Assembly: GCA_964344325.1 (NCBI GenBank)
Contig: CAYFMX010000010.1
Coordinates: 2,332-66,331 of the forward strand
DNA: 64,000 nucleotides
From: an uncultured Piscirickettsiaceae bacterium
GTDB taxonomy: Bacteria > Pseudomonadota > Gammaproteobacteria > GCF-002020875
Reading direction: 5' to 3'
Positions within the stretch are counted from its first letter, which is position 1. Each line of letters starts with the position of its first letter. The notes under the pieces were generated by a model. That model was not told where the DNA came from. It saw only the letters and a program-made list of their open reading frames with translations, and searched no databases. Shown one piece after another: positions 23,422 through 29,889 of this stretch. The translations under genes and the position numbers were made by a program.

Positions 23422-23729
23422 CGCAACGCGCTGTTTTCCCTTGCGAAGAAGGCAGCCGCCTTTTTTAAAATTTCATTGTCCTGTTTGGCCTGCCATAGTT
23501 GTTTTTCAAGCGCCTGAATTTTCTGTTGTTCCTCCGCGAATGCCTTCCCTTGCGGGGTTTTGCCTTCCAGTTCTTCGCGGTACTATTTTTTCCAGCGCGT
23601 CACCGCCGATGCACCAGCACCGGAGATTTCCATTATTTTTTTGTTGCTGTAATTTTCCTCCACCATAAGTTTGGCATAATGCTGCCGCTGTTCCGGGGTG
23701 AAAGAAATCCGTTCTTTTCTTGTGGTCAT
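22957..23729 (-). mobile_element. IS3-family insertion sequence remnant
   Basis: orfA: HTH transposase N-terminus MTTRKERISFTPEQRQHYAKLMVEEN, then frameshifts. orfB-like ORF 22957-23421 has the HTH_21 region and the start of the rve/DDE domain (HTHWVGDITYIKT...LACVLD) but is truncated. No intact terminal inverted repeats identified. Confidence 0.65.
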
Positions 23730-24149
23730 TTGGTTTTTTTCCAGAGTATTTGAAGAGGAATATAGGCTATAAAACTCTCTGAAATTATTTAAACCACTAC
23801 ATTCCTCGAATGAACCACCATTAAAACTACTCAGGCGGGTTTCTTCATCCTCTTCAAGTAGATGGGCGTAGTAGATATTACCAATATGCTTGATTTGATC
23901 GCCTGAAAGCTCTTGCAATGGCAGCTGCTTGAGCTGCTCCAGCCTCCTGCGGTGGGCTTCAAACTTCTCATCTACCTCAATAGCAGCAATACGGACAAGC
24001 CTCAGGGCTTCCCGATAATCTTTAGTCTTGAGTGAGAAAGTTTCTTCGCGTTTACCGTACGTATCCCGAATATCTGTAGGGACTGCTGCACGGTGATAGT
24101 AGGTTGAATTACGGCGGTATAGACGGGTGTGTCCAGACATCTTCTCCAT
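23730..24149 (-). pseudogene. tyrosine-type phage integrase N-terminal fragment, interrupted by IS3 orfA
   Basis: N-terminal TRLYRRNSTYYHRAAVPTDIRDTYGKREETFSLKTKDYREALRL resembles the arm-binding N-terminus of P4-like integrases. The frame runs directly into the IS3 orfA sequence. Located 90 nt from the tRNA-Ser 3' end. Confidence 0.5.
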
Positions 24150-24240
24150 AGCTCCACTGTAACACCCTGATGTAACAGTGAGAAGATTAACCGTCTGATT
24201 TACTTATAACTTATTGAAGTTATAGGAGAATAGTAGTGTA

Positions 24241-24332
24241 TGGCGGAGGGATAGGGATTCGAACCCTAGATAGGCTACAAACCTATGCCGGTTTTCAAGA
24301 CCGGTGCATTCAACCAGCTCTGCCATCCCTCC
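24241..24332 (-). tRNA. tRNA-Ser (anticodon UGA)
   Basis: 92-nt type II tRNA: acceptor GGAGGGA/TCCCTCC, anticodon stem CCGGT/ACCGG with loop CTTGAAA, long variable arm CATAGGTTTGTAGCCTATC, TTCGAAT T-loop, CCA encoded. Confidence 0.85.
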
Positions 24333-24455: not shown

Positions 24456-24878
24456 TTACTGGCGAGCTTTTGGAGCCTCTGGAGCTGGCGCATAGTGCGG
24501 AGCCGGAGCCATGCCGCCCATACCCATGCCACCCATGCCGCCATAAGGGCCATATGGATAACCACGATAATGCGGCTGATATGGGTAGCTCTCTGATCTC
24601 CAGTCAGAATCACCCTGGAAGCGAGTATCGTTAGACGCATCCCAGTCTGTATCCATATCCGTATGGCCTTTACCGGAAGCGTTTACAGTCATGCTGAAGT
24701 CGCCTTCTGCATCACCTGTACCGCGACCTGCGCCACGACCGCGGGAATCCATCGCGCCGTCCGCAGAACCTGTGCCATAACCGTGGTAGTTGTCGTCATC
24801 GCTGAAGAATGCGGAAGCCCCTGTAGAAGCCATCGCAGCCAAAGCAATTGCAGCAATCATCTTTTTCATTGTGCTCAT
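24456..24878 (-). CDS. secreted Gly/Tyr/Pro-rich low-complexity protein (possible sulfur-globule-protein-like envelope protein)
   Basis: Signal peptide MSTMKKMIAAIALAAMASTGASA. C-terminal YPYQPHYRGYPYGPYGGMGGMGMGGMAPAPHYAPAP low-complexity region. Confidence 0.5.
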   Translation of the reverse strand: MSTMKKMIAAIALAAMASTGASAFFSDDDNYHGYGTGSADGAMDSRGRGAGRGTGDAEGDFSMTVNASGKGHTDMDTDWDASNDTRFQGDSDWRSESYPYQPHYRGYPYGPYGGMGGMGMGGMAPAPHYAPAPEAPKARQ

Positions 24879-25119: not shown

Positions 25120-26700
25120 TCAATGTTCGCGGGTTGCATGGAAGGTAACATCTGGCCAACGTTCCATCGCCAAATCCAGATTGACGCGCGTCGGCGCAAG
25201 ATACGTGAGGTTCCCACCACCATCCATTGCCAGATTGTCGCGGTTTTTGGATTTGAACTCCTCCAGTTTCACAGCATCCTCACACGTTACCCAGCGTGCC
25301 GTTTGGACAGAGACATTTTCATAAATTGCCTCAACCTTATACTCGTGTTTAAGGCGGTGGGCAACCACATCAAACTGCAACACACCAACCGCGCCCAAAA
25401 CCAGATTGTTGTTCTCCAGTGGCATGAACAACTGCGTCGCCCCCTCCTCTGAAAGTTGCTGCAACCCTTTTTGCAACTGCTTGTTTTTCAGCGGGTCTTT
25501 AAGCCGCACCAGCCGGAACAGTTCTGGCGCAAAATGCGGAATACCGGTGAACTGGATCGTCTCCCCCTGGCTAAAACTGTCACCGATCTGGATCGTACCG
25601 TGGTTATGCAAACCAATAATGTCGCCCGACCACGCTTCCTCCGCATGCTCACGATCCCCCGCACGGAAGGTGAGCGCATTAGGCACATTTATGTCCTTAT
25701 TGATCCGTGACTGATGTAATTTCATCCCTTGCGAAAATTTTCCGGAACAAATCCGCATAAACGCAATGCGATCACGGTGTTTCGGATCCATGTTTGCCTG
25801 GATTTTGAAGACAAACCCGGTCAATTTCTCTTCGCTCGGTTCGACCGTGCGGGTCTCTGCATCGCGAGATTGGGGGGATGGTGCAATTTCTACAAAACCA
25901 TCCAACATCTCTTTCACACCAAAATTACCCAATGCTGTGCCGAAGTAAACAGGTGTTAACTCCCCGGCAAGATATTCATCCAGATCAAATTCGTGACTCG
26001 CACCACGCACCAGTTCCAGTTCTTCGCGTAAATCTTCTGCAAGTGAACCAATCGCTTCATCTAATTCAGGATTATCTAATCCTTTGATAATCCGTTCTTC
26101 CTGAATCGTATGGCCTTGACCCGTTTGATAGAGCACAGTCTGGTCATTATCCAGTTCATAGATGCCTTTGAACTGCTTGCCCATACCGATTGGCCAGTTG
26201 ATGGGCGCACATTTGATGTTGAGGATTTCCTCAACTTCGTCCAGCAACTCAATCGGATCGCGGATTTCCCGATCCATTTTGTTAATGAACGTGAGAATCG
26301 GCGTGGTACGTAGGCGGCACACTTCCATCAGTTTGATCGTACGCGCCTCAACACCTTTTGCACCGTCGATCACCATTAGCGCAGAATCGACCGCCGTCAA
26401 TGTGCGGTAGGTATCTTCAGAAAAATCCTCATGCCCCGGCGTGTCGAGCAAATTCACCATCCGCTCTTTATACGGAAACTGCATCACCGACGTAGTCACC
26501 GAAATACCGCGTTCTTTCTCCATCTCCATCCAGTCGGAAACCGCATGGCGATCCGAGCCGCGCCCCTTGACTGTACCCGCCTGCTGGATCAGCTTGCCAA
26601 ACAACAACAGTTTTTCGGTAATGGTGGTCTTGCCCGCGTCGGGGTGAGAAATAATCGCAAACGTGCGGCGTTTGCCGACCTCTTCTTCAAGTTGGCTCAT
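25120..26700 (-). CDS. prfC: peptide chain release factor 3
   Basis: GTPase motifs [24 protein letters not shown]. 526 aa. Full-length RF3 similarity. Confidence 0.95.
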
Positions 26701-26810
26701 GGGAAATATCTGGAAAATCTAGATTTGAAGACAGGAAAAAAGAGCCAATTCTACCCGGATATTAATTACTGTGCTGCGCTATATCTGCGCACTCTTTTCG
26801 ATCCATTTGT

Positions 26811-28721
26811 TTAGATTGGAACCGCCTTCAAAGAAATCGTCAAAAAGAAGCCCAACAACGTCGCCAAACCAATAATTGAGCCGCCTTTGCTATACGCTTC
26901 AGGCAACATCGTCTGCGCAATCATCGTCAACATTGCACCAGCCGCCAATCCCTCTAACAATGAGAGCCAATACGGATCAGCCCCCTGCATCAAGCTGCCG
27001 AAAGCAGCACCAATACCAGTGAAGAGCGCAATCGAAACCCACATCGCCAGAATCTTGAAGCGCGAAAACCCCTCTTCCCGCATCCCGCGTGAACTGGAGA
27101 GTGCTTCTGGATAGTTGGAGAGAAACAGACCGGCAACCAATGCCAAACTGATCCCCAATCCGCCGCCGCTTGGATCAGTTTTTGCGCCGATCACGAATGA
27201 TTCCGGAATGCTATCCAGCAAAATACCAAGCCAAATCGCCACTGACGCGCCATGTTGGGAGGTAGACTCAATTCCCATCTCCAGCATCGAAGGGGGCATC
27301 TTTCCAACTTGCACCGCCTTCCGCGCCCGGCTGACCCACGCCAGCACACGCCCCTGATCGAGATTGTAACGTTGCTGGAGATAGCTGTTGAATGCGCGAC
27401 TTTTGAAATTATGCGCCAAACGCACTCCAAAATTCGGGTAATGGCGAATCAACCGCCCCAAATCGTGGCGGCGAAATGCCCAAACACCAATATCCGTTTT
27501 TGCCTCTGCGCTCATCGTATGGCGCAGATCACACAGGAACGCGAAACTGCCAATTGCATCACCCATATCCTGTGTATGGACTTTGCTTCGGTCTTCCATA
27601 TCACGCAACGTCACTTCGCCATGATCAATGATGTAAAAGTAATTGGCTGGCTCACACTGCTCGTACAATTTCTCCCCGGCCTTATAGCGACGATAGGTGA
27701 GAAAATGCCCAAACTGCTCCGCTTCATTTGGACTCATATCCTCCAACCACGGGATGCGCTCCAGCGGATGGGCAGCGACAAATGCGGCAAAACGGTCAGA
27801 CAGGCTTTCAAACGGTTTCGCATCAGGCAAATGGCCACTCTGCTCGCAATCGACCTCCTCACGTACCTGATCACGCCACTGCGCAATTTCTGCATCATCC
27901 ATCCCTACAGCACGCAAGTGTTTGCGGATATCCTTCCCAGTCAGCAACCATTGAGAGACTGCTTCACGGAAAGCAGATGAGGCTTCCAGCAATTGCAATC
28001 CGGTCTCTTTCGGCAACGTTGGAATCCAACTGTCCCTGGTGGTGCGAGCGATCTTGGCGTGCGGCGTGCCAGTGAAAAAAGGCCGCAGCCCGAAAGTACT
28101 GTTTTCGCCGACTACCTCTGGTGCTTCTGTGCTGCCGGGCGTTTCCAGTTCAACACAACCGCGCCCCACCATATAGAGCGTCTCGGACGGATCGCCCGGC
28201 ATGTAGAGGATGCTTCCCTTGGCATAAAAGCGCGTCTCCACATGATCGGCGATAAAACGAACTTCGTCATCCTGTTGCAGCTTGCTGAAAAGCGTTGTCC
28301 GTCCCAACCCCTGCATAATTTTGATCAGGTTTTTGCGTGCCGTGGTATTCCGGTGCACCACCACCGAAGAGTGCTTGCGACGGTATCCACCAAAATTGCT
28401 GACGGCCTTGTCCAACAGGAAAAAGATCAGTCCACCCGCTAGCCCACCAAGCGTCAACCCGCCAAAATGACCATGTTCCACCGCTGGGGCAACCAGATCA
28501 ATCGCCAACGCGGCGAGCAACGCCCCACCCCCGAATGCCATCAATGCTGCAACGACGCGTGGTTCCGGTCGCCACAGGAACGAATGTAACGCGCCCAATG
28601 GCAGGGAAATCGCACTGACAATCCCGATCAGAAAGGCAGTAAAGGCAAGTTGTTCAAGCGCAGTCATAGCCGTGCAATTTTCTCTTTCTATAGTCTCTAA
28701 AACAGTCTCAAAAAAATGCAC
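26811..28721 (-). CDS. ZIP-family metal transporter with two cyclic-nucleotide-binding domains inserted in the central cytoplasmic loop
   Basis: N-terminal and C-terminal polytopic segments resemble ZupT/ZIP (GISLALVAGLFLSNYPEALSSS ... LLEGLAAGAMLTMIAQTMLPEAY). The middle about 330 aa contains two CAP/cNMP-binding-like beta-roll regions (FYAKGSILYMPGDPSETLYMVGRGCVELE; YKAGEKLYEQCEPANYFYIIDHGEVTL). Confidence 0.55.
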   Translation of the reverse strand: MHFFETVLETIERENCTAMTALEQLAFTAFLIGIVSAISLPLGALHSFLWRPEPRVVAALMAFGGGALLAALAIDLVAPAVEHGHFGGLTLGGLAGGLIFFLLDKAVSNFGGYRRKHSSVVVHRNTTARKNLIKIMQGLGRTTLFSKLQQDDEVRFIADHVETRFYAKGSILYMPGDPSETLYMVGRGCVELETPGSTEAPEVVGENSTFGLRPFFTGTPHAKIARTTRDSWIPTLPKETGLQLLEASSAFREAVSQWLLTGKDIRKHLRAVGMDDAEIAQWRDQVREEVDCEQSGHLPDAKPFESLSDRFAAFVAAHPLERIPWLEDMSPNEAEQFGHFLTYRRYKAGEKLYEQCEPANYFYIIDHGEVTLRDMEDRSKVHTQDMGDAIGSFAFLCDLRHTMSAEAKTDIGVWAFRRHDLGRLIRHYPNFGVRLAHNFKSRAFNSYLQQRYNLDQGRVLAWVSRARKAVQVGKMPPSMLEMGIESTSQHGASVAIWLGILLDSIPESFVIGAKTDPSGGGLGISLALVAGLFLSNYPEALSSSRGMREEGFSRFKILAMWVSIALFTGIGAAFGSLMQGADPYWLSLLEGLAAGAMLTMIAQTMLPEAYSKGGSIIGLATLLGFFLTISLKAVPI

Positions 28722-28846
28722 TGTACAGCAAAAAAGTTACAAAACGCATGCTCTCTGACCGGAAAATCTTTTTATCCCGGCATTCAAAAGAATGCTATAG
28801 TGGCTTCTATCTAAATGTCTGACTTTTTTACTAGGGAATAGCGCAT

Positions 28847-29242
28847 ATGAGCAACGATACCGAACTCAATTTCACCTATGAAGAACGTCAACATTTAACC
28901 ATCCGCGTGCTCTCTGTGATGCGCGACTGGAAGCTGAGTGAAACAGAACAGATGGTGTTGCTCGGTCTAGCCCACGAAAAACCGCGTATGTTGACTAAAT
29001 TGCGTAATGGCACGCCACTGCCGGATGATCAGGACATTTTGCAGCGGGTGCGCCATCTCGTCGGGATCGGCGACGCGCTGGAGCGCAACTACCCACGAAC
29101 CCAGGGCGGCGGGCAAGTATGGCTGCGGCACACCAACAAATATCTCAATAAACGTACACCCATCGCAATGATGCTGGAAGATGGAATTTACGGAATGCAC
29201 CAGGTCTGGATTCGCCTCGACTGCACTCAGGGATGGGATTAA
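28847..29242 (+). CDS. Xre/MbcA/ParS-like toxin-binding-domain (DUF2384) protein, orphan antitoxin-like
   Basis: C-terminal WLRHTNKYLNKRTPIAMMLEDGIYGMHQVWIRLD matches the DUF2384 consensus (W L..PN..LGG.TPL.L..T..G...V...L.RI). No RES/ART toxin gene follows. Confidence 0.55.
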   Translation: MSNDTELNFTYEERQHLTIRVLSVMRDWKLSETEQMVLLGLAHEKPRMLTKLRNGTPLPDDQDILQRVRHLVGIGDALERNYPRTQGGGQVWLRHTNKYLNKRTPIAMMLEDGIYGMHQVWIRLDCTQGWD

Positions 29243-29256
29243 TAAGGAACGCTGCT

Positions 29257-29889
29257 ATGAAAATGATAGGAAATTTAATCGGTGCCCTATTTTTGATTCT
29301 GGTATCACTCCCCGCAACTGCAGGCCATAATTCGCTTCACGATCTGGTCTCTCAGGACAATCTGTCGGAAGTGGAAGAGTTACTTCAACAGAAAAAAAGC
29401 AAACGTCTGCTCAAGAAATCCAACTCCTATAACGAAAAGCCAATCCATCTCGCACGCTCTCCAGAAATGGTGCATTTGTTAGCTAAACATGGCGCAAAAG
29501 TGGATGCGGAAAATCGCTTTGATGACACCGCATTGCTACACGCCGTCGCCCGAGGTGATGTGCCGCTGATTGAAGCGTTGCTGGAAGCAGGCGCAGATCC
29601 AAATCATAAAAACCGTTTCGGCGATACGCCATTGCAGGAAGCCGTTTGGCGCAACCTCACCGTGATTACCAACTTGCTGGTTCAGTCTGGCGCATCTGTG
29701 GATCGGGCAACCAAATATGGAGGAACTGTGCTCCATATTGCGGTACGTCGGGGCAACACCGCAATGGTCACTACCTTATTACAAGCTGGCGCAGACGCTC
29801 AGGTCAAAGATCGCCACGGGCATAGCGCGACCGATCTGGCAAGTAGTGACGAGATGCGCGAAGTGATGCGGACAGAAATCTGGCGGTAA
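29257..29889 (+). CDS. secreted ankyrin-repeat protein
   Basis: Signal peptide MKMIGNLIGALFLILVSLPATAG. At least four ANK repeats (DTALLHAVARGDVPLIEALLEAGADPN; DTPLQEAVWRNL...; GTVLHIAVRRGNTAMVTTLLQAGAD). Confidence 0.75.
   Translation: MKMIGNLIGALFLILVSLPATAGHNSLHDLVSQDNLSEVEELLQQKKSKRLLKKSNSYNEKPIHLARSPEMVHLLAKHGAKVDAENRFDDTALLHAVARGDVPLIEALLEAGADPNHKNRFGDTPLQEAVWRNLTVITNLLVQSGASVDRATKYGGTVLHIAVRRGNTAMVTTLLQAGADAQVKDRHGHSATDLASSDEMREVMRTEIWR

What the first reader, a model, noticed from the sequence alone, without database searches (positions are those of the whole stretch)
26811..28721. ZIP-family metal permease fused to tandem cyclic-nucleotide-binding domains
The protein begins and ends with ZupT/ZIP-like transmembrane segments. 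The C-terminal half aligns by eye with ZupT TM4-8 including the metal-site region, though here it reads SNYPEA rather than the canonical HNxPEG. The enlarged central cytoplasmic loop (about 330 aa) contains two CAP-family cNMP-binding beta-rolls. This would place metal (Zn/Fe/Mn) uptake under direct cAMP/cGMP gating, which I do not recognise as a described arrangement for ZIP transporters. The substitutions at the canonical His/Gly positions may indicate altered metal selectivity, or a sensor rather than a transporter.
Basis: partly seen in the sequence, partly recalled or inferred. Interest (0 to 1): 0.6.

Follow-up and report, generated by a model that had tools for sequence, protein, structure and literature searches.

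The report
ZIP metal transporter with inserted sensor domains
This gene encodes a real but unstudied metal-ion transporter of the ZIP type with two cyclic-nucleotide-sensor-like domains built into its cytoplasmic loop, but in this protein both sensor pockets lack the residues that normally hold cAMP or cGMP, so it probably responds to some other signal.

Summary
Window 26811-28667 (-) encodes a 618-aa protein (636 aa from an upstream GTG). It has ZIP helices TM1-3, a roughly 380-aa cytoplasmic insert with two CNB-fold domains, then ZIP TM4-8. Pfam Zip and cNMP_binding x2 both pass their thresholds, and the AF2 model has pLDDT 91.

The protein belongs to a large uncharacterised clade, found in at least 562 species genomes and 214 representative clusters at E<=1e-30. 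The clade's ZIP core carries 0, 1, 2 or 3 CNB inserts.

The metal site is remodelled across the whole clade, relative to BbZIP: H177->D, N178->G/S, Q207->S/A, D208->N, E240->T, with E181 and E211 kept. This points to one all-oxygen site and a harder cation than Zn.

The cAMP/cGMP-gating reading is not supported for this protein. Both phosphate-binding cassettes lack the Glu, Arg and Gly169 equivalents, and His replaces Arg in 92/119 (CNB-A) and 117/119 (CNB-B) sequences. Single-CNB sister proteins keep textbook cassettes (FGEIALL..PRTAT), so cNMP-gated ZIPs probably do exist.

The commonest neighbours of tandem-family genes are pstSCAB genes (11 of 76 loci, three phyla), though not in this window.

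Best reading: a ligand-gated divalent-cation ZIP whose sensor has moved away from cNMP, possibly linked to phosphate status. No literature describes it.

The parts
26811..28667 (-). CDS of the ZIP-CNB-CNB protein (618 aa from ATG 28667, stop 26811-26813). The longest ORF extends to GTG 28721 (636 aa).
   Evidence: ORF list. 100% identical 618-aa database protein P0001. Homologues start at or after residue 1-11 of the 618-aa form. Translation checked.
28398..28667 (-). ZIP TM1-TM3 (residues 1-90). TM2 carries invariant FGGGALLAAL and a conserved acidic D57.
   Evidence: Single-stretch alignment to BbZIP 63-302. AF2 helices 3-31, 36-64 and 68-90. Conservation.
28347..28397 (-). Conserved juxtamembrane linker NFGGYRRKHSSVVVHRN (family consensus D-Y-G-G-F-x-R-K-x-S-T). 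G93, G94 and R97 are invariant; K98, S100 and T101 are near-invariant. Predicted flexible.
   Evidence: Column counts. pLDDT <50 at residues 94-97.
27933..28295 (-). CNB-fold domain A (residues about 125-245).
   Evidence: Pfam cNMP_binding. phmmer alignment to yeast PKA regulatory subunit Bcy1 (3of1). AF2 beta-roll 144-219 plus helices.
28041..28094 (-). Phosphate-binding-cassette region of CNB-A: FGLRPFFTGTPHAKIART. Leu is at the Glu200 position and His203 at the Arg209 position.
   Evidence: Alignment to PKA/PKG. In the family: His 92/119, Arg 4/119, no Glu among the six commonest residues, which account for 111 of 119 sequences.
27768..27932 (-). Helical inter-domain linker (residues 246-300).
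   Evidence: AF2 helices 245-253, 258-273 and 290-299.
27363..27767 (-). CNB-fold domain B (residues about 301-435).
   Evidence: Pfam cNMP_binding best stretch 344-427 in 636-aa numbering. Alignment to Plasmodium PKG. AF2.
27501..27554 (-). Phosphate-binding-cassette region of CNB-B: IGSFAFLCDLRHTMSAEA. Ser is at the Glu200 position and His383 at the Arg209 position. The near-invariant Gly380 is Asp in this protein only.
   Evidence: alignment. Family counts: His 117/119, Gly380 117/119, Asp 1/119.
27249..27362 (-). Linker from CNB-B to TM4 (residues 436-473).
   Evidence: AF2 helix 438-453 followed by coil.
26814..27248 (-). ZIP TM4-TM8 (residues 474-618).
   Evidence: Pfam Zip stretch 492-627 in 636-aa numbering. 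BbZIP alignment. AF2 helices 474-495, 508-531, 536-558, 565-595 and 598-615.
27198..27218 (-). TM4 metal-site motif LDSIPES (BbZIP H177-N178-L-P180-E181-G). D485, P488 and E489 are invariant.
   Evidence: BbZIP site residues from PMC9873690.
27102..27119 (-). TM5 metal-site motif SNYPEA (BbZIP Q207-D208-V-P-E211-G). N518, P520 and E521 are invariant.

Best explanation
The gene encodes a ZIP-fold divalent-cation transporter. Its cytoplasmic TM3-TM4 loop has been replaced by a folded regulatory module of two CNB-fold domains.

Shown:
- The 3+5 TM ZIP core and the tandem CNB-fold insert are present.
- The carboxylate/amide ligands D485, E489, N518 and E521 are invariant.
- The BbZIP M2-site ligands are lost (D208->N, E240->T, N178->G/S). 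The M1 His/Gln are replaced by Asp/Ser.
- Both CNB domains lack the Glu200, Arg209 and Gly169 equivalents. His is conserved at the Arg position.
- The same ZIP core occurs without an insert, with one canonical CNB, and with three CNBs.
- Tandem-family genes recurrently lie next to pstSCAB.

Inferred:
1. The protein moves a cation through a single all-oxygen site by the ZIP elevator mechanism. The site suits Mn2+, Fe2+, Mg2+ or Ca2+ better than Zn2+.
2. TM3 belongs to the static scaffold domain and TM4 to the moving transport domain. A rigid ligand-responsive module tethered between them would therefore allow or block the sliding movement, which gates transport.
3. The module descends from, or shares origin with, a true cNMP sensor like that of the single-CNB relatives. 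In this tandem subfamily it no longer binds cAMP/cGMP in the canonical way and reads another cytoplasmic signal at the His-containing cassette, mainly in CNB-B.
4. The physiological setting is often phosphate acquisition. That could mean cation supply matched to Pi uptake or storage. Nothing in this organism's 64-kb window shows that link.
For: - Architecture.
- Family size and spread: 293 full-length hits; at least 562 GTDB species genomes across Gammaproteobacteria, Campylobacterales, Scalindua, cyanobacteria and Alphaproteobacteria; 214 cluster representatives at E<=1e-30.
- Metal-site mapping to BbZIP: with the eight site residues taken from PMC9873690. Invariance. The same pattern holds in 128 representatives, including stand-alone ZIPs: D 128/128, E 122, N 126, E 127, T 98.
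- The TM3 (scaffold) and TM4 (transport domain) assignment is from PMC9873690.
- Cassette degeneracy. Its meaning comes from PMC2246266.
- Contrast with single-CNB relatives: 37/55 have Glu+Arg and 28 also have Gly169, against 0-1 of 26 per domain in tandem forms.
- pst neighbourhood: PstS-type PBP_like_2 is the commonest family among immediate neighbours (6/140). ABC permease is the commonest at the second position (6/123). PstS/C/A/B and PhoU are confirmed above curated cut-offs. True pst genes lie within 57-3455 bp in 10 loci, plus L081 (11 of 76). An OprO/P phosphate porin sits in L024. No adenylate or guanylate cyclase appears among the commonest neighbour families.
Against: - No transport or binding data exist for any member. 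The cation, the direction and the ligand are all inferences.
- His can still hydrogen-bond a phosphate, and Popeye-type domains bind cAMP without a canonical cassette (my own knowledge). Non-canonical cNMP binding is therefore not excluded.
- The pst link holds for only about 14% of loci. It is absent from this window.
- No Pho box was found upstream here or in 18 cyanobacterial loci.
- This protein is an outlier in its own family: Gly380->Asp in the CNB-B cassette and a 4-residue insertion in the TM4-TM5 loop. Its sensor may be further degenerated.
- I could not inspect model coordinates, so the CNB-to-TM contacts are not examined.
Confidence: 0.55

Rival explanations
1. One reading: cAMP or cGMP binds both CNB domains and directly gates Zn/Fe/Mn uptake through the ZIP core.
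For: - Both domains pass the Pfam cNMP_binding threshold and superpose on PKA/PKG tandem CNBs.
- Cassette length is canonical: the Gly-to-His spacing is 10, as for PKA G199-R209.
- The single-CNB sister subfamily has textbook cassettes, so the clade as a whole is tied to cNMP signalling.
- An Arg-to-Lys change in PKA lowers affinity only about ten-fold (PMC2246266).
Against: - Glu200, Arg209 and Gly169 equivalents are all missing in both domains. His is conserved instead. Only 0-1 of 26 tandem representatives have Glu+Arg in either domain.
- PMC2246266 links these losses to other ligands or to no cNMP binding, as in CooA, CprK and PDZ-GEF.
- No cyclase appears among the commonest neighbour families.
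Confidence: 0.2
2. The two CNB-fold domains bind no small molecule. They serve as a structural or dimerisation module, or carry an 'intrinsic ligand', like the CNB-homology domains of CNNM Mg2+ transporters and KCNH channels. Regulation, if any, comes through partners or through the conserved RKxST linker.
For: - Canonical ligand contacts are lost in both domains.
- CNB-A is only moderately conserved at the Arg position: His 92/119, and the rest mixed.
- The two domains show no detectable similarity to each other by BLASTP.
- The precedent of CNBH domains in cation transporters is from my own knowledge.
Against: - His383, Thr/Ser384 and Gly373/380 in the CNB-B cassette are kept in 117/119 sequences across several phyla. 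That looks like selection on a pocket rather than drift.
- The cassette length is preserved.
Confidence: 0.15
3. The conserved cassette histidines ligate haem or the transported metal itself. The module would then be a redox/gas sensor or a cytoplasmic metal-feedback sensor, as in CooA or the His-rich loops of eukaryotic ZIPs.
For: - In CooA a His at the position structurally analogous to PKA Arg209 coordinates haem (PMC2246266).
- The TM3-TM4 loop is where eukaryotic ZIPs sense cytosolic metal through His-rich segments (my own knowledge).
- Host taxa are mostly redox-gradient organisms.
Against: - The CooA haem pocket requires deletion of the CRP 72-82 segment (PMC12937710), whereas the cassette here is full length.
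- One conserved His per domain is too few for a metal site, and no conserved Cys/His/Asp cluster accompanies it.
Confidence: 0.06
4. The protein no longer transports. The ZIP core is a membrane anchor or a periplasmic metal sensor, and the protein acts as a receptor.
For: The metal site departs from the canonical ZIP motif. The ZupT equivalog model scores far below its cut-off (18 against 252 bits).
Against: - There is no output domain of any kind.
- D485, P488, E489, N518, P520, E521, T550 and the TM7 MLPEAY motif are invariant or nearly so in 119 sequences.
- They are shared with stand-alone ZIPs of the same clade. That is the pattern expected for a working transport site.
Confidence: 0.04

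Closest known systems
BbZIP / ZupT-type prokaryotic ZIP transporters (Pfam PF02535; structures 5TSA, 8GHT)
   Same: - Eight TM helices in a 3+5 arrangement.
- A single-stretch alignment over BbZIP 63-302.
- The Pro-Glu pairs of the TM4 and TM5 motifs and the TM7 PE motif are kept.
- The Pfam Zip threshold is passed.
   Different: - A roughly 380-aa folded insert replaces the short His-rich TM3-TM4 loop.
- Six site residues are changed: M99->L, H177->D, N178->S (G in the family), Q207->S, D208->N, E240->T. H275/E276 also become Q/T.
- The second metal site is probably lost.
- The ZupT equivalog model is not met.
Single-CNB ZIP-CNB proteins of the same clade (for example P0162, Pyrinomonadaceae NNE67968.1, 442 aa; P0158, P0183, P0188)
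   Same: The ZIP core has the same D-G-x-P-E / S/A-N-x-P-E / T signature, and the insertion point between TM3 and TM4 is the same.
   Different: They carry one CNB domain, not two, and it keeps the canonical cassette (FGEIALL..PRTAT) and Gly169. These are the likely true cNMP-gated ZIPs. They are also uncharacterised.
Tandem CNB-A/CNB-B module of PKA and PKG regulatory subunits
   Same: Two consecutive CNB folds joined by helices. These are the best structural matches, with Foldseek E about 1e-13. A basic R-R/K-x-S motif lies upstream of CNB-A.
   Different: Both cassettes lack Glu and Arg. There is no kinase partner. The module is inserted inside a membrane protein rather than free-standing.
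CNB-regulated ion transport proteins: MloK1/SthK channels, MscS-like bCNG channels ('Channel_Bact' in PMC2246266), sperm SLC9C1, and CNNM Mg2+ transporters with a CNB-homology domain
   Same: The design principle is shared: a cytoplasmic CNB-fold domain attached to an ion-translocating membrane domain. In CNNM the CNB-homology domain does not bind cNMP (my own knowledge).
   Different: In those proteins the CNB domain is C-terminal to a channel or a DUF21 fold. Here it is inserted between the scaffold and transport halves of an elevator-type ZIP. No ZIP-associated family appears among the 30 CNB families of PMC2246266.
Eukaryotic ZIPs regulated through the TM3-TM4 loop (ZIP4 and IRT1 His-rich loops, ZIP7 phosphorylation)
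   Same: The same loop is the regulatory site (my own knowledge, not tested here).
   Different: Those loops are disordered and act through metal binding, phosphorylation or ubiquitination. Here the loop is a folded ligand-binding-type module.

Membership tests
ZIP (Zrt/Irt-like protein) family, Pfam PF02535 / TC 2.A.5 | Sequence match to the family profile above the curated threshold | tested here: met
   Zip scores 42.1 bits against a gathering score of 35.1, E 8e-11, in two stretches. Relatives score 47-62 bits.
ZIP (Zrt/Irt-like protein) family, Pfam PF02535 / TC 2.A.5 | Eight TM helices in a 3+5 arrangement, with a variable cytoplasmic loop between TM3 and TM4 | tested here: met
   The AF2 model has 3 plus 5 TM helices. 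The insert-deleted sequence aligns to BbZIP 63-302 in one stretch.
ZIP (Zrt/Irt-like protein) family, Pfam PF02535 / TC 2.A.5 | Canonical TM4/TM5 metal-site motifs (H-N-x-P-E-G and H/Q-D/N-x-P-E-G) forming a binuclear centre | tested here: not met
   The motifs read L-D-S-I-P-E-S and S-N-Y-P-E-A. Pro and Glu are kept, but His/Asn and Gln/Asp are replaced and E240 becomes T. This is a variant site, conserved across the whole clade.
ZIP (Zrt/Irt-like protein) family, Pfam PF02535 / TC 2.A.5 | Divalent metal transport activity | not testable with these tools
   Needs uptake assays or proteoliposomes.
ZupT (NCBIfam NF003243 equivalog) | Score above the equivalog cut-off | tested here: not met
   18.4 bits against a cut-off of 252.
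Cyclic-nucleotide-binding (CNB) domain fold, Pfam PF00027 | Profile match above threshold and the beta-roll plus helices fold | tested here: met
   92.2 bits against 27.5, in two stretches. AF2 shows the beta-rolls. Foldseek matches PKA/PKG tandem CNBs.
Functional cAMP/cGMP-binding CNB domains | Phosphate-binding cassette with Glu (PKA E200) and Arg (PKA R209): FGE[LIV]AL..[PV]R[ANQV] | tested here: not met
   CNB-A has Leu and His; CNB-B has Ser and His. In the family, Arg is present in 4/119 (A) and 2/119 (B), and Glu is not among the six commonest residues at that position in either domain. The motif definition is from PMC2246266.
Functional cAMP/cGMP-binding CNB domains | Gly in the beta2-beta3 loop (PKA G169), co-conserved with Arg209 | tested here: not met
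   The position is Ser in CNB-A (family A/C/S, Gly 5/119) and Ala in CNB-B (Ala 103/119, Gly 1/119).
Functional cAMP/cGMP-binding CNB domains | Measured binding of cAMP or cGMP | not testable with these tools
   Needs ITC or a fluorescence assay on the purified module.
Pho regulon / pst-associated genes | Conserved genomic linkage to pstSCAB | tested here: inconclusive
   True pst genes are adjacent in 11 of 76 relatives' loci from three phyla. None lies in this 64-kb window.
Pho regulon / pst-associated genes | Pho box upstream of the gene | tested here: not met
   No PhoB-type box lies near 28668-28846; the 2 window hits are elsewhere and fewer than the chance expectation. A crude scan for SphR-type repeats upstream in 18 cyanobacterial loci was no better than control windows.

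The most novel reading that the evidence does not exclude
The tandem CNB module has been re-tuned from cyclic nucleotides to a phosphate-status signal: orthophosphate, pyrophosphate, polyphosphate or a phospho-metabolite held by the His-substituted cassettes. The protein would then be an accessory cation importer of the Pst system. It would match entry of a hard divalent cation (Mg2+, Mn2+, Fe2+ or Ca2+) to phosphate uptake or polyphosphate storage. Together with its single-CNB, truly cNMP-type sisters, it would define the first ligand-gated branch of the ZIP family, present from bacteria to alveolate algae.
Probability: 0.12. Interest if true: 0.75.

Novelty: new variant of a known kind. Interest (0 to 1): 0.55.

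Why it matters
- ZIP transporters are the main zinc, iron and manganese importers from bacteria to humans. How their cytoplasmic TM3-TM4 loop controls the elevator movement is still unclear.
- This clade offers folded, ligand-type sensor domains wired into exactly that loop, in several natural versions: none, one canonical CNB, two non-canonical CNBs, three CNBs.
- That series is a ready-made comparison for testing how a ZIP can be gated. It could also show whether second messengers control metal uptake directly in bacteria.
- The remodelled all-oxygen metal site is a natural experiment on ZIP selectivity.
- The recurrent placement beside the high-affinity phosphate transporter hints at a link between cation and phosphate homeostasis in sulfur oxidisers, anammox bacteria and cyanobacteria.
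- All of this is prediction. No member has been studied.

Tried and rejected
- Regulatory RNA: the Rfam scan of the whole window found only two tRNAs and no metal or cNMP riboswitch near the gene.
- Pho box: the PhoB consensus with up to 3 mismatches gave 2 hits in the window, none near the gene and fewer than chance. A periodic 8-mer scan upstream in 18 cyanobacterial loci was not better than control windows.
- Promoter and terminator scan of 26500-29000: counts equal the shuffled expectation, so it is uninformative.
- pst genes in the window: tblastn with PstS, PstC, PstA, PstB and PhoU from relatives' loci found nothing.
- Internal duplication: BLASTP of CNB-A against CNB-B of this protein gave no alignment, so recent duplication is not supported.
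- The 'PstB' cluster from single-linkage clustering was partly generic ABC ATPases (L024, L028, L031, L080 at about 30% identity). These were removed from the pst count, and L081 was added.
- Haem sensing as in CooA was considered and down-weighted, because the cassette is full length.
- The window neighbours give no functional clue: prfC, an ankyrin-repeat protein, a SIS/CBS isomerase and two ORFs without Pfam hits.
- Literature: the searches for a ZIP-CNB fusion returned nothing relevant.
Full report

Yes. An uninterrupted ORF runs from 28721 (GTG) to 26811 on the minus strand (636 aa). An identical 618-aa protein is in public databases (P0001). All 119 aligned relatives start at the position of the ATG at 28667, and the 18 upstream residues have no counterpart. 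I therefore take 26811-28667 as the CDS and use 618-aa numbering below (add 18 for the ORF numbering).

- Pfam finds cNMP_binding twice (92 bits, threshold 27.5) and Zip PF02535 in two stretches (42.1 bits, threshold 35.1).
- With the middle removed, the remaining 255 residues align in one stretch to BbZIP residues 63-302, the structurally solved bacterial ZIP. That covers all eight helices.
- An AlphaFold2 model built on 119 sequences is confident (pLDDT 91.2, pTM 0.83). It shows three N-terminal TM helices, two beta-roll domains with flanking helices, and five C-terminal TM helices.
- Foldseek places the middle on the tandem CNB-A/B modules of PKA and PKG regulatory subunits.
The TM4 motif reads LDSIPES.

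**2. How common is it?**

- The first protein search returned 293 hits. The 120 listed were nearly all 600-630 aa (one was 526 aa), all carried cNMP_binding, and most also carried a precomputed Zip hit. They were named only 'cyclic nucleotide-binding domain-containing protein' or 'CRP-like cAMP-binding protein/zinc transporter ZupT'.
- A scan of one genome per species found at least 562 carriers. They include sulfur-oxidising and methanotrophic Gammaproteobacteria, Campylobacterales, Scalindua (anammox), many cyanobacteria, Rhodospirillales and magnetotactic bacteria.
- The window's protein is at most 52% identical to any of them.
- An exhaustive HMMER search of 1.84 billion cluster representatives gave 214 hits at E<=1e-30 and revealed a wider clade.
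- The same ZIP core occurs in four forms:
  - with no insert (P0151, P0222, about 300-330 aa, labelled ZupT by JGI);
  - with one CNB domain (about 430-470 aa, the most numerous form among representatives);
  - with two CNB domains (this family);
  - with three CNB domains, including a eukaryotic protein from the alga Vitrella brassicaformis (CEM33398.1, 864 aa).

**3. The membrane part**

PMC9873690 lists the eight residues of the BbZIP binuclear centre: M99, H177, N178, E181, Q207, D208, E211 and E240. It assigns TM4 to the moving transport domain and TM3/TM7 to the static scaffold domain.

- In the alignment these positions are L50, D485, S486 (Gly in most relatives), E489, S517, N518, E521 and T550. 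H275/E276 on TM7 become Q585/T586.
- D485, P488, E489, N518, P520, E521 and T550 are invariant in 119 sequences.
- The same pattern holds in 128 representatives of the wider clade, including the insert-free ZIPs: D 128/128, E 122, N 126, E 127, T 98.
- The altered site is therefore a property of this ZIP clade, not a by-product of the fusion. It is under strong selection, as expected of a working transport site.
- Three of the four M2 ligands are replaced by non-carboxylates, so I infer a single site.
- The M1 position is formed by Asp, Glu, Glu and Ser, an all-oxygen set without His or Met. Ordinary coordination chemistry then favours a harder cation (Mn2+, Fe2+, Mg2+ or Ca2+) over Zn2+. This is inference only.

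**4. The sensor part**

Kannan et al. (PMC2246266) define the canonical phosphate-binding cassette as FGE[LIV]AL..[PV]R[ANQV]. They show that Arg209 contacts the cyclic phosphate and co-evolves with Gly169. They also note that families without these residues bind other ligands (haem in CooA, chlorophenolacetate in CprK) or are of unknown specificity (PDZ-GEF, with His or Met).

- In this protein the alignments to PKA/PKG put Leu and His in CNB-A, and Ser and His in CNB-B, at the Glu and Arg positions.
- Across 119 relatives the Arg position is His in 92 (A) and 117 (B), and Arg in 4 and 2. Glu is not among the six commonest residues at its position in either domain.
- The Gly169 position is Ala/Cys/Ser.
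- Cassette length is unchanged, with a Gly-to-His spacing of 10. That speaks against a CooA-like haem pocket, which needs that segment removed (PMC12937710).
- By contrast, 37 of 55 single-CNB representatives have both Glu and Arg, and 28 also have Gly169. Their cassettes are textbook, for example FGEIALLTDAPRTATV.
- Among 26 tandem representatives, at most one per domain has Glu plus Arg.
The window's protein belongs to a branch whose sensors have moved away from canonical cNMP recognition.
- The near-invariance of His383 with Thr/Ser384 and the two cassette glycines suggests a pocket that is still used, mainly in CNB-B.
- The window protein itself is an outlier. Gly380 is Asp (1 of 119), and the TM4-TM5 loop carries a 4-residue insertion.

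**5. Genomic context**

In the window the gene lies between prfC (downstream, 110-bp gap) and a divergent pair: a 131-aa ORF without Pfam hits and an ankyrin-repeat protein. Further out is a SIS/CBS sugar isomerase. None of this is informative. No pst gene occurs in the 64 kb.

The 76 relatives' loci with usable flanks cover 773 kb of flank. Across them context is mostly variable, with one recurrent theme.

- The commonest Pfam family among immediate neighbours is the PstS-type binding protein (6/140).
- The commonest family among second neighbours is the ABC permease (6/123).
- NCBIfam confirms PstS, PstC, PstA and PstB above curated cut-offs, and Pfam confirms PhoU.
- True pst genes lie 57-3455 bp away in L005, L022, L024, L036, L038, L040, L053, L055, L062 and L063, and also in L081.
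- These loci come from cyanobacteria, Gammaproteobacteria and a planctomycete, and the arrangements differ. Examples are pstS-C-A-B followed by the gene after 65 bp in Xenococcus PCC 7305; the gene followed by pstSCAB-phoU in a Methylococcales MAG; and divergent pairs elsewhere.
- L024 also has an OprO/P phosphate porin.
- Assuming about two pst clusters per 4-Mb genome, I would expect fewer than one such locus in 76. That figure is my estimate, not a computed control.
- No cyclase appears among the commonest neighbour families.
- Direct tests for Pho boxes were negative or uninformative.

**6. Mechanism proposed**

The protein is most likely a divalent-cation importer working by the ZIP elevator mechanism. 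The tandem CNB module is tethered between the scaffold helix TM3 and the transport-domain helix TM4. It would restrain or release the sliding of the transport domain in response to a cytoplasmic ligand.

- Shown: the anatomy, the conservation patterns and the neighbourhood statistics.
- Inferred: the gating, the cation class, the non-cNMP ligand and the phosphate connection.
- Rivals, in order of my confidence: canonical or non-canonical cNMP gating (0.2), a ligand-free structural module (0.15), a haem or metal sensor via the histidines (0.06), and a non-transporting receptor (0.04).

**7. Comparison with what is known, and novelty**

- The protein is a ZIP by profile and topology, but it fails the canonical metal-motif test and the ZupT equivalog model.
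- It has CNB folds but fails the three sequence tests for cNMP binding.
- The 30-family CNB census of 2007 lists no ZIP-linked family.
- None of my full-text searches found a paper on the fusion.
- Automated annotation already shows both domains, and CNB fusions to transport proteins are a known design principle.
- I therefore class it as a new variant of a known kind. It has moderate-to-good interest as a natural series of gated ZIPs, with an unexplained sensor change and an unexpected phosphate-transporter neighbourhood.

Noticed in passing
Proteins P0148-P0220 (for example P0158, P0162 = NNE67968.1 Pyrinomonadaceae, P0183, P0188, P0200); not in the window: A sister subfamily of about 430-470 aa has the same ZIP core but a single CNB insert. 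Its phosphate-binding cassettes are textbook (FGEIALL..PRTAT) and it keeps Gly169. These are probable true cNMP-gated ZIPs, and I found no description of them in the literature.
   Followed up: partly
P0237 (CEM33398.1, Vitrella brassicaformis, 864 aa); also P0225, P0244, P0246 and P0257 (800-890 aa): Versions with three CNB-like inserts exist, at least one of them in a eukaryotic alveolate alga. They keep the same D-A/G-x-P-E / S-N-x-P-E metal-site signature.
   Followed up: partly
window 28347-28397 (-), residues 91-107: The linker just after TM3 is almost invariant across the family (D-Y-G-G-F-x-R-K-x-S-T; here NFGGYRRKHSS). It reads like a basic R-R/K-x-S kinase-type or pseudosubstrate motif placed upstream of CNB-A, as in PKA regulatory subunits. 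It is the only low-confidence stretch of the model.
   Followed up: no
window 27501-27554 (-) and 27120-27197 (-): The window's protein is an outlier within its own family. The near-invariant Gly380 of the CNB-B cassette is Asp (1 of 119), Ala196 of the CNB-A cassette is Pro (6 of 119), and the TM4-TM5 loop has a 4-residue insertion (KTDPSGGGLG).
   Followed up: partly
L011 1097-6849, L012, L065: In three gammaproteobacterial MAGs the gene is preceded by a P2-type cation ATPase (Cation_ATPase_N/C with an N-terminal HMA_2 domain), metK and a small HMA_2-domain protein. This second cation-transport neighbourhood is distinct from pst.
   Followed up: partly
L024 10169-11572; L053 4177-5331; L038 9378-9899: Other single-case neighbours were seen: an OprO/P phosphate-selective porin between the gene and pstS (Scalinduaceae), an SBF/ACR3-type permease beside pstS (Xenococcus), and a ComFB-family protein (Snowella).
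   Followed up: no
window 23583-24332 (-): A tRNA gene (24244-24332, minus strand) lies directly beside a 188-aa ORF with a DUF6538 domain (23583-24149). The layout suggests the edge of an integrated mobile element.
   Followed up: no
window 24456-24878 (-): A 140-aa ORF has a signal-peptide-like start and a Gly/Met/Pro/Tyr-rich low-complexity tail (GGMGGMGMGGMAPAP). It has no Pfam match.
   Followed up: no
window 28847-29889 (+): Divergent from the ZIP-CNB gene is a 131-aa ORF with no Pfam hit. It overlaps by 10 bases a 218-aa protein with a signal-like N-terminus and ankyrin repeats (Ank_2, E 2e-37). The same pair is present on the independent Logan contig L001.
   Followed up: no
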